From the NCBI GenBank assembly GCA_030765685.1, contig JAVCCB010000050.1, positions 11,735-75,734 of the forward strand: DNA of 64,000 nt, given 5' to 3'. Origin of the DNA: Candidatus Tantalella remota (GTDB lineage Bacteria; Omnitrophota; Gorgyraeia; Tantalellales; Tantalellaceae). Positions 51,001 through 54,000 of this stretch are shown here, one piece after another. Every line of letters starts with the position of its first letter. Position 1 is the stretch's first letter. Position numbers: made by a program.

Positions 51001-54000
51001 ATTGTTGCCGGAAAGCGAATGTGATTATTGCAACGGTGCTGGATATCATAGTAAATATGGTGCTGACAGAGAGGAGTGTAGCTTTTGTCGTGGACGAGGC
51101 GTGGGGCGATACAACTTCAGTGAGGAAACCGTCAAGCATTTTGTGGATTTCTTGCGGGACTGTGACGGGTTTAAGGTACCAGTTAAAATATTACCGTAGT
51201 CAAAGGAGCGTTATGAAAATAGCTATTTATGCGAGGGTCTCAAAGAACGATGATTCTCAGGATCCTCAAAATCAGTTACAGCCCTTGAGAGATTACGCCA
51301 AAGCGTTAAAGGGAATAGTGGTTGAAGAGTATGTTGATTTAGCAAGTGGAGGAGGCAGTGCTGATAGAGTTAGGTTTTTGCAGATGCTTGAGGATGCTGA
51401 CAAACACAAATTTGATCTGGTATTAATATGGGCATTAGATCGTTTTTCGAGAGAAGGTATCTCAAACACGCTTGGATATCTCGATCGATTAAAGAGGAAC
51501 GGTATAGCCTTGAAAAGTCTGCAGGAGTCCTGGCTTGATACCCGGGACGAATCTTTAGGGCAGCTGTTAATAGCTATCTTCAGTTGGGTTGCCGCTCAAG
51601 AGAGATTAAGAATAGTAGAAAGAACGAAGGCAGGTTTGAAGAAGGCGAAAGCCAACGGCAAACGATTGGGCAGACCCAAAGGATCCAAGGACAAAAAGGT
51701 AAGAAGAAAATCTGGATATAATATGAGGTGGGTGAATAATAAATAATAGGAGGATATTTAGAATGGGTTTGCATAGTAAAATATTGATGGTTCGAAAGGT
51801 GAATTAGTTTAGAGTAAGGCACTCTAAACCCTAAAAATGAGGAGGAGAAAGATGTATGATTACAGCAATTATTTGAAAGTAGTAGGACCGGCAAATGAAA
51901 AGGAAAGATTTCACAAGAAAGCTCTAGCCATTTCAATTGAACAACCGGAAGGAAAAAAAGAGACATTTTTACTATGGAATATAATGCCCTTGCCCGAGGA
52001 TCTTATTGAACATGTAAATGATGACGATGATCTTGAGGATAATGAGTGTGAAGAAATGTTTTTAAAATATGGTATAACCACTGGACACGACTGGATGGAT
52101 ATGCATTGGGGCATGGTTAACGAACTTGAAAATATTCAAATAAATGGAAATGAATATGAGTATACTTTTGACTCATATGGTGGAGTAATTGCAAGAGGAA
52201 TAATCTCAATTTCACGAATGTTCGAAAGGCTTCATTTTGTATACAAATATCATTCAAGAGATAAGGATAGTTCTGAAGAGGGGTATTTTCTAATTAAAGC
52301 TGGGAAACTTATTAAAGAACGTATAGGGCTCATTGGACAAAAAGAAGTCTGAAAATGGACAAACTCCTAACAATAAATGATCTGTGTGAGTATCTTTCCG
52401 TAAGGCGGAGTACGCTCTACGAATGGACTCACACAGGTTTTATTCCGTGCTACAAGATCCTCAAGGACATTCGCTTTAAGCAATCTGAAATTGATTTAGC
52501 AAGCGGTGGAGGGAGCGCAGATAGAAATAGATTCTTACAGATGCTCGAGGACGCAGATAAGAGAAAATTCGACCTGGTATTGGTATGGGCTTTAGACAGA
52601 CTAAGCAGGGAAGGTATATCAAACACACTCGGCTATCTCGCCCGCTTAAAGAGGAACGGTATAGCCTTGAAAAGCCTTCAGGAATCCTGGCTAGATACCC
52701 GAGATGAATCCTTAGGACAACTTCTCATCGCAATATTCTCCTGGGTAGCAGAGCAGGAGCGCAAAAGAATTGTAGAAAGAACGAAGGCAGGCTTGAAAAA
52801 GGCTATATCGAATGGCAAACGATTGGGCCGTCCCAAAGGGTCCAAGGATAAAAAAGCAAGACGCAAGTCTGGATATAATATGCGTTGGGTAAATAAGAAA
52901 TAATTACCGGTTCTGAGAAAGGTCCTACCCCTTCAAAATCCTTCTAATAAAACCGTTAGAAATCTAGCATTTTAAGTGTTATAATATGGTTTAAAATGTA
53001 ACAAGGTAAAAAAGGAGCTAGAATTTGAAAATCACATCAAGTCAGTTGACTATTGCCCAATTATTAAGTAGCAATAATGAACAGTTTTTTATTCCAGCTT
53101 ATCAACGGCGGTATGCTTGGGGAAATAAACAATTAGTTGAATTGTTTGAGGATATAAATTTACTCGATAAGAATGACTCTCATTTCTTGGGAACTATTTT
53201 ACTCCTTACAGAGTCACATCGGGCTAGTATTAATAGGCTTGAAGTAGTTGACGGGCAGCAAAGAATTATATCGCTATCATTGCTGATAGAGGCGATAAGG
53301 GATAGGTTTGCTGAATTAGATCAACAGGAAATTGTTCAAGAAATAGGGTCATTAATATATTGTCAGGGATTAGATAGGAAGAAACAAAATAAAATCATTT
53401 TAGGTGATCTCGATGAGCCTGACTATTCAAAAGTATTAAAACTCAATAACGAGGAAGATTTGAGTTGTGAAGAAGAAATAAAGAACAAAAAATTGTTAAA
53501 TGCTTATATAGATTTCAAAAAGTGGATAAATGAATTTAGCTATGAAAAACTTAACGAGTATTACTTCAAACTGATTAACAACACAATTGTTGTTAGACTT
53601 GACACGGAGAAGGCAAAAGATGCATATAAGTTGTTTGAAACCATTAATAATAGAGGTTTGAGACTTAGTCCAACGGATATAATTAAAAACTTTCTTTTAG
53701 GACATGCTTCTATGGTAGGAGAAAGCGTTTTAAACGATGTTCGTGAATCGTGGAAAAGTGTAATTGTCAGCCTGGATGGGATAGAAACTGATAATTTCTT
53801 TAGGCAATACTTGATGGGAGTATTGAAAAAGAAGGTGACATTTACCAAACTCATTTCTGAATTCAAAAAATATTATTTAACAACTGTCAAAGAAGCGGAA
53901 ATTCTTCCGGAATATAGGCTATATAATGAGTTTGCGGATTATGATGACGAAGAAGAATATAGTGCAGATGAAGTAGTCGAGGACAATCTACTTGTTGAAG

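What the first reader, a model, noticed from the sequence alone, without database searches (positions are those of the whole stretch)
51213..52903. Intact small serine recombinase plus a truncated, HTH-fused, catalytically dead paralog 600 bp downstream
Nt ~51340-51750 and ~52478-52905 are about 80% identical. The upstream copy encodes a resolvase-type catalytic domain with the YARVS serine. The downstream copy has that N-terminal ~45 aa replaced by an excisionase-like HTH and so lacks the nucleophile. Both share an unusual basic tail (GRPKGSKDKKxRRKSGYNMRWVN) instead of the usual C-terminal HTH. A catalytic subunit paired with a DNA-binding decoy or directionality factor derived from the same gene would be a neat regulatory solution for island excision or inversion.
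Basis: seen in the sequence. Interest (0 to 1): 0.55.

Follow-up and report, generated by a model that had tools for sequence, protein, structure and literature searches.

The report
Dead recombinase-excisionase fusion beside intact copy
An intact small DNA recombinase sits next to a second copy whose catalytic front end was replaced by an excisionase-type DNA-binding domain; the second copy looks like a rearrangement scar at the edge of a phage-defence island rather than a purpose-built regulator.

Summary
Window 51334-51747 and 52491-52904 are 79% identical in DNA and 91% in protein. Copy A (51213-51746) is a complete serine-recombinase catalytic domain with the Ser10 nucleophile. Copy B (52355-52903) is an HTH_17 (excisionase-type) domain fused in frame to the last 137 codons of a second copy, so it lacks Tyr6, Arg8 and Ser10 and strands beta1/beta2.

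The basic tail is not special to this pair. It marks a large family without the usual HTH, found in Omnitrophota, CPR bacteria and DPANN archaea.

The regulatory reading is not supported.
- The fusion occurs only in this island lineage (three assemblies).
- In the sister island L006 the same junction is followed by a 290-bp deletion, and the upstream ORF carries a nonsense codon.
- A third recombinase 3' remnant (50686-50750) and a remnant of a duplicated zinc-finger gene (51763-51810) show an eroding tandem array.
- The array lies where a tmRNA-integrated element's backbone meets variable defence cargo (GmrSD, type I R-M and Dsr1-like here; BREX in L006).
- No inverted repeats or res-like sites were found.

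Copy B shows no degenerative amino-acid changes, so a non-catalytic role cannot be excluded. Overall this is an ordinary rearrangement product; the family itself is the more interesting lead.

The parts
43028..43409 (+). tmRNA gene. Its 3' end marks the start of the low-GC integrated element that carries the finding.
   Evidence: ARAGORN and Rfam RF00023 at 167 bits. SmpB lies at 42386-42841. GC falls from ~48% to 34-40% here. The sister island L006 also starts inside a tmRNA 3' end.
50686..50750 (+). Non-coding remnant of the last ~45 nt of a third recombinase gene ('Res0') plus the RBS, directly upstream of the zinc-finger ORF.
   Evidence: Matches 51695-51760 at 75-77% (E=5e-6). The same remnant is present in L006 at 7427-7464.
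50750..51199 (+). 149-aa ORF with two CxxCxGxG zinc-finger motifs, tightly coupled to copy A (13-nt gap).
   Evidence: Weak match to the DnaJ central domain. L006 has an 87% orthologue and a 61% second paralogue, ORF160. NCBI accession MDP8299181.1, annotated hypothetical.
51213..51746 (+). Copy A: an intact small serine recombinase without an HTH. It has the catalytic domain, the alphaE helix and a 21-aa basic tail.
   Evidence: Pfam Resolvase 3e-34 over the full profile. All catalytic residues are present. The AF2 model has mean pLDDT 80 with elements beta1-alphaA-beta2-alphaB-beta3-alphaC-alphaD-beta4-alphaE and a low-confidence tail. The best structural neighbours are catalytic domains of large serine recombinases.
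51763..51810 (+). Remnant of the first ~48 nt of a second zinc-finger gene. The L006 ORF160 homologue has lost its remaining ~445 nt here.
   Evidence: L006 homology runs through 51810 and resumes at 51843. See the alignment.
51852..52352 (+). Orphan 166-aa ORF ('ORF171'), translationally coupled to copy B (TGA-AA-ATG).
   Evidence: No Pfam, NCBIfam, PHROG or PADLOC hit. No homologues found. It is 95.4% identical to L006, where it carries a TAA nonsense codon.
52355..52489 (+). Copy B, N-terminal part: an excisionase-type HTH_17 domain covering 44 of 51 profile positions.
   Evidence: Pfam HTH_17 3.6e-11. TIGR01764 'excise' at 33.1 bits, above the 28.8 cutoff. It is 43% identical to the L022 HTH_17 gene that directly precedes a tyrosine integrase.
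52490..52903 (+). Copy B, C-terminal part: the last 137 codons of a second recombinase copy, from the end of beta2 onward. It has no nucleophile.
   Evidence: Resolvase profile positions 37-144 only. 79% nt and 91% aa identity to A, with dN/dS 0.047.
52957..52985 (+). Promoter-like site (TAGAAA, 17 nt, TG-TATAAT; 10 of 12 matches) in front of the GmrSD gene.
   Evidence: Best site in the scan, but the number of sites found is not above the shuffled expectation.
53025..54845 (+). GmrSD-type (HEC-06/Orf5-like) type IV restriction enzyme, the first defence cargo gene. It is absent from L006.
   Evidence: Pfam GmrSD_N 1.8e-36 and GmrSD_C 2.7e-22. PADLOC HEC-06 5e-87. Synteny with L006.
54852..55037 (+). 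61-aa HTH_17 leader gene of the type I R-M operon. Its L006 homologue leads a BREX operon.
   Evidence: Pfam HTH_17 4e-14. MAD1-like but below cutoff. L006 gene 9887-10072 precedes BrxA/B/C.
55038..62572 (+). Type I restriction-modification system: two HsdM, HsdS, a 152-aa ORF and HsdR.
   Evidence: Pfam results.
62574..64000 (+). Dsr1-like defence gene that runs off the window end.
   Evidence: PADLOC Dsr1 6e-36.

Best explanation
The window carries a low-GC mobile element integrated next to the tmRNA gene of an Omnitrophota genome (Ca. Tantalella remota).

Copy A is the element's one competent small serine recombinase. It belongs to a large family that has a catalytic domain like those of large serine recombinases, the alphaE oligomerisation helix, and a conserved basic tail (GRPxGSKDxKxRRKSGYxLRW) in place of an HTH. 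In relatives this recombinase sits upstream of an excisionase-integrase pair or a large serine integrase. I therefore infer that it is an accessory recombinase, not the integrase.

Copy B is a rearrangement product. The element's ancestor carried a tandem array of [zinc-finger ORF + recombinase] units. A deletion or replacement joined an excisionase-type HTH_17 gene (with its upstream ORF171) in frame to codon 41 of a downstream recombinase copy. This removed strands beta1 and beta2, helix alphaA, and residues Tyr6, Arg8 and Ser10. B therefore cannot cleave DNA.

B marks the junction between the conserved backbone and the exchangeable defence cargo. It is being eroded in the sister island, and recombination with intact copies keeps its sequence looking healthy.

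Shown: the anatomy, loss of the nucleophile, the restricted distribution, erosion in L006, the third remnant, and the mosaicism. Inferred: the order of events, the deleted integrase, the role of copy A, and non-function of B.
For: Anatomy: domain architecture and catalytic residues; AF2 topology of A, which shows that the junction falls at the end of beta2.

Context: tmRNA and the GC drop; defence cargo.

Sister island L006:
- The same junction, IRFKQSEID|(S/L)ASGGG.
- A 290-bp internal deletion that leaves a 72-aa product.
- ORF171 with a nonsense codon.
- An intact ORF160 where the window keeps only 48 nt.
- BREX cargo instead of GmrSD and type I R-M.

Array structure: a third recombinase 3' remnant and duplicated zinc-finger genes.

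Distribution: the fusion is found only as P0001, P0121 and the window protein.

Recombination:
- Window-L006 identity is 95% in ORF171 and 89% in the HTH, then falls to 80% exactly at the junction.
- The recombinase-derived part of the L006 fused gene is 96% identical to L006's own intact copy.
- The middle of B is 83-93% identical to the intact L006 gene, while B's 3' end is closer to A.
These patterns indicate gene conversion or recombination among copies.

ORF171 and the HTH evolve with relaxed constraint, dN/dS 0.53 and 0.38.

Origin of the HTH: relatives show the order recombinase, then HTH_17, then tyrosine integrase (contiguous in L016; also L022 and L026). B's HTH is closest to the integrase-adjacent HTH_17 of L022.

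No inverted repeats or conserved flanking motifs were found.
Against: B's reading frame is intact over 137 recombinase-derived codons. All 12 amino-acid differences from A lie at variable columns, 11 of the 12 B states occur in other family members, and every near-invariant family residue is kept.

If B had drifted neutrally for half of the window-L006 cassette divergence, I would expect roughly 3-8 hits at conserved positions. That is my own estimate. This fits recent origin or gene conversion, but equally fits purifying selection on B.

No pre-fusion arrangement (ORF171, full-length xis, then int) was found, so the deletion scenario is not directly documented.

The rest of the 78.8-kb contig could not be read, so loss of the integrase is not shown.
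Confidence: 0.55

Rival explanations
1. B is a maintained non-catalytic partner of A. Through the retained alphaE helix it forms mixed oligomers with A. It would then either poison catalysis (a dominant-negative brake on rearrangement) or supply the sequence-specific DNA binding that the HTH-less A lacks, for example at accessory sites where catalysis is not needed.
For: B has an intact ORF with no degenerative substitutions, and all near-invariant residues from D42 onward are retained, including the alphaE helix and the basic tail. It is translationally coupled to ORF171. A has no DNA-binding domain of its own. HTH_17 genes often lie on the same strand downstream of family members (10 of 27 loci), and one is directly adjacent in L016.
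Against: The architecture is absent outside one island lineage. It is truncated to 72 aa in L006, where the intact recombinase persists. B lacks beta1, the central strand of the catalytic-domain sheet (established resolvase structure; topology), so the remaining domain may not fold. A mixed dimer would have one nucleophile and could not make a double-strand break (established serine-recombinase mechanism). No candidate sites were found.
Confidence: 0.2
2. Only the HTH_17 half of B matters. B acts as an excisionase-like or transcription-factor-like DNA binder, for example a regulator of the adjacent GmrSD or other cargo genes. The recombinase-derived tail is a tolerated passenger or a convenient dimerisation helix.
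For: The HTH_17 domain is nearly complete (44 of 51 profile positions). The 72-aa L006 version keeps the HTH and loses the rest. Small HTH_17 genes lead the defence operons in both islands (54852-55037 before HsdM; L006 9887-10072 before BrxA). B's weak best NCBIfam and PADLOC hit is the MADS defence HTH MAD1.
Against: The HTH part evolves fast between the two islands: 9 amino-acid changes in 45 residues, dN/dS 0.38. The MAD1 match is below cutoff (53.5 vs 80 bits). GmrSD has its own promoter-like site and is absent from L006. ORF171, to which B is coupled, is a pseudogene in L006.
Confidence: 0.15
3. The junction is produced by a programmed, site-specific event. In this reading the ORF171-HTH cassette inserts at a preferred site at codon 41 of recombinase genes and did so independently in the two islands.
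For: Window-L006 identity drops from 89-95% to 80% exactly at the junction. Downstream of the junction, the fused gene in L006 is 96% identical to that island's own intact copy. Recombinase 3' ends recur three times per island.
Against: Gene conversion bounded by the end of homology explains the same pattern. The displaced 5' 40 codons are not found on the other side of the cassette. There is no dyad symmetry at the junction (read directly from the sequence). Only two islands are available.
Confidence: 0.05
4. The second copy is an assembly chimera or sequencing artefact of a MAG.
For: The source is a metagenome-assembled genome. L001 diverges from the window after 52820 and looks mosaic, so some paralogue mis-assembly does occur in these data.
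Against: Three independent assemblies share the junction. L007 reproduces 50157-51977 at 99.7%.
Confidence: 0.02

Closest known systems
Resolvase/invertase small serine recombinases (Tn3 and gamma-delta resolvase, Hin, Gin)
   Same: Copy A has the same catalytic domain and residues (Y6, R8, S10, D67, R68, R71 equivalents), the long alphaE helix, a GR(P/K) minor-groove arm motif after alphaE, and a similar size of ~180 aa.
   Different: There is no C-terminal HTH; only 21 basic residues follow the GRPK arm. No adjacent res, hix or gix-like repeats were found. By sequence and fold the catalytic domain is at least as close to large serine integrases.
Catalytic N-terminal domain of large serine recombinases (TP901-1 integrase, Bxb1, PhiC31, CcrB/C)
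   Same: These are the best structural and profile matches for copy A: 3bvp at 33% identity and TM 0.84; NCBIfam CcrB/CcrC; PHROG 95 'integrase'. In CPR genomes the family gene directly precedes a ~550-aa large serine recombinase, and in L020 that enzyme's catalytic domain is 47% identical to A.
   Different: Copy A has no recombinase domain, zinc ribbon or coiled coil. It is a stand-alone catalytic domain plus tail.
IS607-family serine transposases (N-terminal MerR-like HTH plus catalytic domain)
   Same: Copy B has the same domain order, an HTH N-terminal to a serine-recombinase domain.
   Different: In B the HTH replaces beta1, alphaA and beta2 rather than preceding them, so the nucleophile is missing. 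The NCBIfam IS607 score is 22 bits against a cutoff of 110. No TnpB partner is present.
Excisionase (Xis / HTH_17) and tyrosine integrase modules of integrative elements
   Same: B's N-terminal 45 aa is an HTH_17/TIGR01764 'excisionase family' domain. Its closest relative outside the lineage (L022, 43%) sits immediately upstream of a tyrosine integrase, as do the HTH_17 genes of L016 and L026.
   Different: In the window the HTH_17 lacks its last ~7 profile positions and is followed by a recombinase fragment instead of an integrase. No tyrosine integrase lies within the window.
Recombinase-associated defence loci (RADS; E. faecalis EF_B0058 recombinase co-transcribed with type IV restriction enzyme EF_B0059), PMC13552941
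   Same: A small serine recombinase gene lies directly upstream of a type IV (GmrSD) restriction gene and further defence systems. That paper also found the recombinase dispensable for defence and its role unknown (window).
   Different: EF_B0058-type proteins are modelled there as Mu Gin-like enzymes, whereas the family here lacks the HTH. The copy adjacent to GmrSD here is the dead one. Homology to EF_B0058 was not tested.

Membership tests
Serine recombinase superfamily (Pfam PF00239 catalytic domain) | Full catalytic domain match | tested here: met
   Copy A: E=3e-34 over profile positions 1-144 of 145. Copy B matches only positions 37-144, so this is met for A and only partly for B.
Serine recombinase superfamily (Pfam PF00239 catalytic domain) | Nucleophilic Ser in the Y-x-R-x-S motif, with Arg8 | tested here: met
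   Copy A has Y6, R8 and S10 (YARVS), aligned to Tn3 Y6, R8 and S10 and invariant or near-invariant in the family. Copy B does not meet this: the residues are absent and no displaced segment exists in the window.
Serine recombinase superfamily (Pfam PF00239 catalytic domain) | Acidic/basic catalytic cluster (gamma-delta D67, R68, R71) and the alphaE helix | tested here: met
   A has D76, R77 and R80; B has D81, R82 and R85. alphaE is predicted at 113-147 in A and 120-152 in B.
Resolvase/invertase subfamily (Tn3, gamma-delta, Hin, Gin) | C-terminal helix-turn-helix DNA-binding domain | tested here: not met
   No HTH Pfam hit in A and none C-terminal in B. Only 21 residues follow the GRPK arm, against 39 in Tn3. 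The tail has low pLDDT and one short helix.
Resolvase/invertase subfamily (Tn3, gamma-delta, Hin, Gin) | Adjacent recombination sites (res subsites, or inverted crossover sites flanking an invertible segment) | tested here: inconclusive
   No convincing inverted repeats within 50500-53100 or 43000-64000. No shared k-mer in the flanks of 28 family loci. Short degenerate sites could be missed.
Large serine recombinases (integrases) | Recombinase domain (PF07508) and zinc ribbon (PF13408) after the catalytic domain | tested here: not met
   Absent from A and B. Present in the neighbouring genes of L019 and L020.
IS607-family transposase | N-terminal MerR-like HTH followed by a complete catalytic domain; NCBIfam NF033518 cutoff of 110 bits | tested here: not met
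   B scores 22.3 bits and A 44 bits. B's catalytic domain lacks the nucleophile.
Excisionase-family HTH_17 DNA-binding proteins | HTH_17 / TIGR01764 domain above cutoff | tested here: met
   B aa 4-47: Pfam 43.6 bits (cutoff 27); TIGR01764 33.1 bits (cutoff 28.8).
Excisionase-family HTH_17 DNA-binding proteins | Acts with a cognate integrase encoded next to it | tested here: not met
   No integrase lies in the window downstream of B. Relatives L016, L022 and L026 do have HTH_17 followed by a tyrosine integrase. Activity itself cannot be tested with these tools.
MADS defence system protein MAD1 | NCBIfam NF047737 cutoff of 80 bits and the other MADS genes | tested here: not met
   53.5 bits for B and 37.8 for the 61-aa HTH. 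No other MADS components were seen.
Recombinase-associated defence loci (RADS) | A small serine recombinase gene adjacent to antiphage defence genes | tested here: met
   B ends 121 nt before GmrSD/HEC-06, followed by type I R-M and a Dsr1-like gene. L006 has BREX at the same place. Homology to EF_B0058 was not tested.

The most novel reading that the evidence does not exclude
The fusion may reveal how this HTH-less recombinase family finds DNA. In this reading the family normally works with a separate excisionase-type HTH_17 protein, and B is a maintained non-catalytic subunit that tethers an HTH_17 to the alphaE/tail module. It would target or restrain copy A at the boundary where defence cargo is exchanged.
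Probability: 0.12. Interest if true: 0.7.

Novelty: new variant of a known kind. Interest (0 to 1): 0.3.

Why it matters
The pair itself is mainly a caution. A tidy-looking 'enzyme plus dead paralogue' can be a recombination scar, and NCBI annotates it simply as 'recombinase family protein'.

The useful by-product is the family behind it. It is a stand-alone catalytic domain of the large-serine-recombinase type, with a conserved basic tail and no recognisable DNA-binding domain. It keeps 55-78% identity across Omnitrophota, Planctomycetes, CPR bacteria and DPANN archaea. It lies next to integrases on mobile elements and, here, exactly where defence cargo varies between sister islands.

If this enzyme mediates cargo exchange or element maintenance, it bears on the open question raised by the RADS study: why small serine recombinases track defence systems.

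Tried and rejected
1. Homologues of ORF171: none in JGI metagenomes or in the 5.8-billion-protein set.
2. Homologues of the zinc-finger ORF149: none in JGI metagenomes or IMG/VR. No further sister islands or pre-fusion state could be recovered.
3. Reading the contig beyond 64 kb to find an integrase and attR: look-ups of HsdR and ORF152 were not on record. The look-up of copy A returned only a 1.8-kb ENA contig. No repeat of the tmRNA 3' end lies inside the window.
4. AF2 model of B with a family alignment: the alignment placed recombinase N-termini over B's HTH, so the model forced a resolvase-like beta-alpha-beta onto residues 1-48 at low pLDDT. It was not used for the N-terminus.
5. Conserved k-mers flanking 28 family genes: none.
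6. Inverted repeats for an invertible segment: none convincing.
7. Literature searches for HTH-less, truncated or inactive serine recombinases: nothing relevant.
8. Recent in-situ duplication: rejected because dS=1.84 and A, B and the L006 orthologue are roughly equidistant.
9. L001 as evidence for selection after the fusion: rejected. It is 100% identical for 380 nt, then ~15% divergent, then unrelated, so it is either a recombinant or an assembly chimera.
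Full report
OBSERVATION.
- BLASTN of the island against itself gives 51334-51747 vs 52491-52904, 79.0% over 414 nt, E=7e-99 (alignment).
- The proteins are 91% identical over 137 aa.
- Similarity starts abruptly at TTGATTTAGCAAG and ends at the stop codon.
- Copy A (51213-51746, 177 aa) matches the whole Pfam Resolvase domain (3e-34) and nothing else.
- Copy B (52355-52903, 182 aa) has HTH_17 at aa 4-47 and Resolvase only from profile position 37. It passes the TIGR01764 'excisionase family' cutoff.
- Alignment to Tn3 resolvase and family-invariant columns give A the residues Y6, R8, S10, D42, R52, D76, R77, R80, E136 and R137. 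These are the gamma-delta Y6, R8, S10, D36, R45, D67, R68, R71, E124 and R125 equivalents.
- B keeps all of them from D42 onward and lacks Y6, R8 and S10.
- No displaced N-terminal piece exists in the window.
- The AF2 model of A (pLDDT 80) has the canonical beta1-alphaA-beta2-alphaB-beta3-alphaC-alphaD-beta4-alphaE topology with a low-confidence tail. The junction (V41/D42) falls at the end of beta2, so B has lost beta1, alphaA and beta2.
- The junction is not an artefact. ENA contigs L001 and L006 carry it independently, and L007 reproduces 50157-51977 at 99.7%.

CONTEXT.
- Copy A is identical to a protein of Candidatus Tantalella remota (Omnitrophota). B is MDP8299184.1, annotated 'recombinase family protein'.
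- SmpB (42386-42841) and tmRNA (43028-43409) are followed by a drop in GC from ~48% to 34-40%. The region is therefore an element integrated at the tmRNA gene.
- Its backbone has a RepB-primase/PriCT gene, a DUF3987 gene, a sigma-like gene, an M28-like peptidase and several orphan ORFs.
- From 53025 onward it carries defence cargo: GmrSD/HEC-06, a 61-aa HTH_17 gene, a type I R-M system with two HsdM genes, and a Dsr1-like gene that runs off the window.
- The recombinase pair sits exactly at the boundary between backbone and cargo.
- No tyrosine integrase lies in the window, and no repeat of the tmRNA 3' end does either. The rest of the contig could not be fetched.

THE FAMILY. The 'unusual basic tail' is a family trait.
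- The 120 best hits to B (E<=4e-58) are 155-213 aa proteins with only PF00239, apart from P0001.
- Alignments show near-invariant tail residues G153, R154, D160, R164, G168, Y169 and R172, within the motif GRPxGSKDxKxRRKSGYxLRW.
- Only 21 residues follow the GRPK arm, too few for the three-helix HTH of Tn3-type enzymes.
- Members occur in Omnitrophota, Planctomycetes, Desulfobacteraceae, Saccharibacteria, Staskawiczbacteria, Woesearchaeota and Pacearchaeota at 55-78% identity, and in IMG/VR contigs.
- By profile and by fold the catalytic domain is closest to large serine integrases: TP901-1 N-terminal domain at 33% identity and TM 0.84, CcrB/C, and PHROG 95.
- In four CPR loci the gene is immediately followed by a ~550-aa large serine recombinase.
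- Among the 20 genome loci, six have a tyrosine integrase within 6 kb downstream.
- In L016 the order recombinase, HTH_17, integrase is contiguous. L022 and L026 also have an HTH_17 gene abutting an integrase.
- HTH_17 genes lie on the same strand downstream in 10 of 27 loci.
- I infer that the family is an accessory recombinase of integrative elements, not their integrase.
- I found no published description of it.

THE SISTER ISLAND. P0121, the only close relative of B's HTH, lies on L006. L006 is a 15.7-kb contig that starts in a tmRNA 3' end and is syntenic with the window at ~82%.
- It has the same junction (IRFKQSEID|SASGGG). However, a 290-bp internal deletion (window 52561-52849) leaves a 72-aa product.
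- ORF171 carries a TTA-to-TAA nonsense codon.
- An intact 160-aa paralogue of the zinc-finger ORF149 follows the intact recombinase. The window keeps only its first 48 nt (51763-51810).
- GmrSD is absent.
- The 61-aa HTH_17 gene leads a BREX operon instead of type I R-M.
- Both islands also carry a third recombinase trace, the last ~45 nt plus RBS, upstream of ORF149 (window 50686-50750).
The ancestor therefore held a tandem array of [zinc-finger ORF + recombinase] units. That array is being eroded by deletions at a point where cargo differs between islands.

HISTORY AND SELECTION.
- A and B have dN/dS=0.047 with dS=1.84, so they are not a recent duplication.
- A, B and the L006 orthologue are about equidistant (78-79% nt) and mosaic. 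B's nt 60-210 of the shared region is 83-93% identical to the intact L006 gene, while its 3' end is closer to A.
- Between the islands ORF171 is 95.4% identical (dN/dS 0.53) and the HTH 88.9% (dN/dS 0.38). Identity then falls to 79.7% exactly at the junction.
- Downstream of that junction, 77 nt of the L006 fused gene are 96% identical to L006's own intact copy.
- Gene conversion bounded by the end of homology explains this. Independent site-specific formation is a less likely alternative.
- B's recombinase part looks healthy. All 12 differences from A are at variable columns, 11 of the 12 B states occur in other members, and all near-invariant residues are kept.
- This fits recent origin or refreshment by conversion from intact copies. 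It equally fits selection on B. I cannot separate these with the data available.

DISTRIBUTION OF THE FUSION. Only the window protein, P0001 (L001) and P0121 (L006) combine HTH_17 with a recombinase fragment. This holds in the word-indexed search and in the exhaustive HMMER search of 1.84 billion representatives. It is a lineage-specific product, not a conserved architecture.

MECHANISM.
- Most likely (0.55): an in-frame deletion or replacement joined an excisionase-type HTH_17 gene, with its coupled upstream ORF171, to codon 41 of a downstream recombinase copy. This probably removed the integrase that follows such HTH_17 genes in relatives. B cannot cleave DNA. Lacking the central beta1 strand (established resolvase fold; topology), it may not fold as a catalytic domain.
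- Copy A remains the only competent enzyme. It would act through Ser10 and alphaE-mediated oligomers and contact DNA by the GRPK arm and basic tail. These steps are inferred from the established serine-recombinase mechanism.
- Rivals: a maintained non-catalytic partner or decoy of A (0.2); an HTH-only regulator with a passenger tail (0.15); a programmed insertion site (0.05); an artefact (0.02).
- No invertible-segment repeats, res-like repeats or conserved flanking motifs were found.

COMPARISON AND NOVELTY.
- A is a serine recombinase by every catalytic criterion. It fails the defining C-terminal HTH of the resolvase/invertase subfamily and the recombinase and zinc-ribbon domains of large serine integrases.
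- B resembles IS607 transposases in domain order only (22 bits against a cutoff of 110).
- A recombinase gene next to a type IV restriction gene echoes the RADS observation (PMC13552941). That study also left the recombinase's role open.
- The pair is best filed as an ordinary rearrangement product inside a mobile defence island.
- The HTH-less family is an undescribed variant of a known kind and the better lead.

WHAT FAILED. See Tried and rejected. In short: no homologues of ORF171 or ORF149 outside this lineage, no access to the contig end, a biased AF2 model of B, and L001 is unusable for selection tests.

Noticed in passing
L019:60-2245, L020:5989-8159, L021:174-2394, L027:2-1774: In CPR bacteria (Saccharibacteria, Staskawiczbacteria) the HTH-less small recombinase gene is immediately followed by, or overlaps, a ~550-aa large serine recombinase. 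In L020 that enzyme's catalytic domain is 47% identical to copy A. This suggests a conserved two-gene module.
   Followed up: partly
window 47562-47674 and 47742-47855: Two ~114-nt direct repeats (79% identical) lie in the 575-nt non-coding gap after the sigma-like ORF. Each has TTCTCCCCA...TGGGAGAA inverted arms. There is no Rfam hit, and the repeats are partly conserved in L006. They could be a small RNA, an origin or promoters.
   Followed up: no
window 189-27655: Four very long ORFs on the + strand (1093, 3104, 3060 and 1521 aa) fill the first 27 kb. This fits the giant genes reported for Omnitrophota; they were not examined.
   Followed up: no
window 55038-58012: The type I R-M operon has two tandem HsdM paralogues (64.5% nt identity over 830 nt) before a single HsdS. 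An unannotated 152-aa ORF lies between HsdS and HsdR.
   Followed up: no
window 54852-55037 and L006:9887-10072: Homologous 61-aa HTH_17 genes (79% nt identity) abut different defence operons, type I R-M in the window and BREX in L006. The HTH gene appears to be a fixed leader in front of exchangeable cargo.
   Followed up: partly
L001:545-755: In this 755-bp ENA contig the B-type gene is identical to the window for 380 nt, then ~15% divergent, then unrelated after window position 52820. This gives a different C-terminus (…NGKPIGMDSTLTQKF…). It is either a recombinant allele, an insertion or an assembly chimera.
   Followed up: partly
window 51808-51828: An 8-bp-stem hairpin (TTTAGAGT-AAGGC-ACTCTAAA) sits exactly at the deletion scar between the ZnF160 remnant and the ORF171 cassette. 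It is absent from L006.
   Followed up: no
window 50750-51199; L006:7492-7941 and 8505-8987: A 149-160-aa protein with two CxxCxGxG zinc-finger motifs is duplicated together with the recombinase and tightly coupled to it. It has no homologues outside this island lineage.
   Followed up: partly
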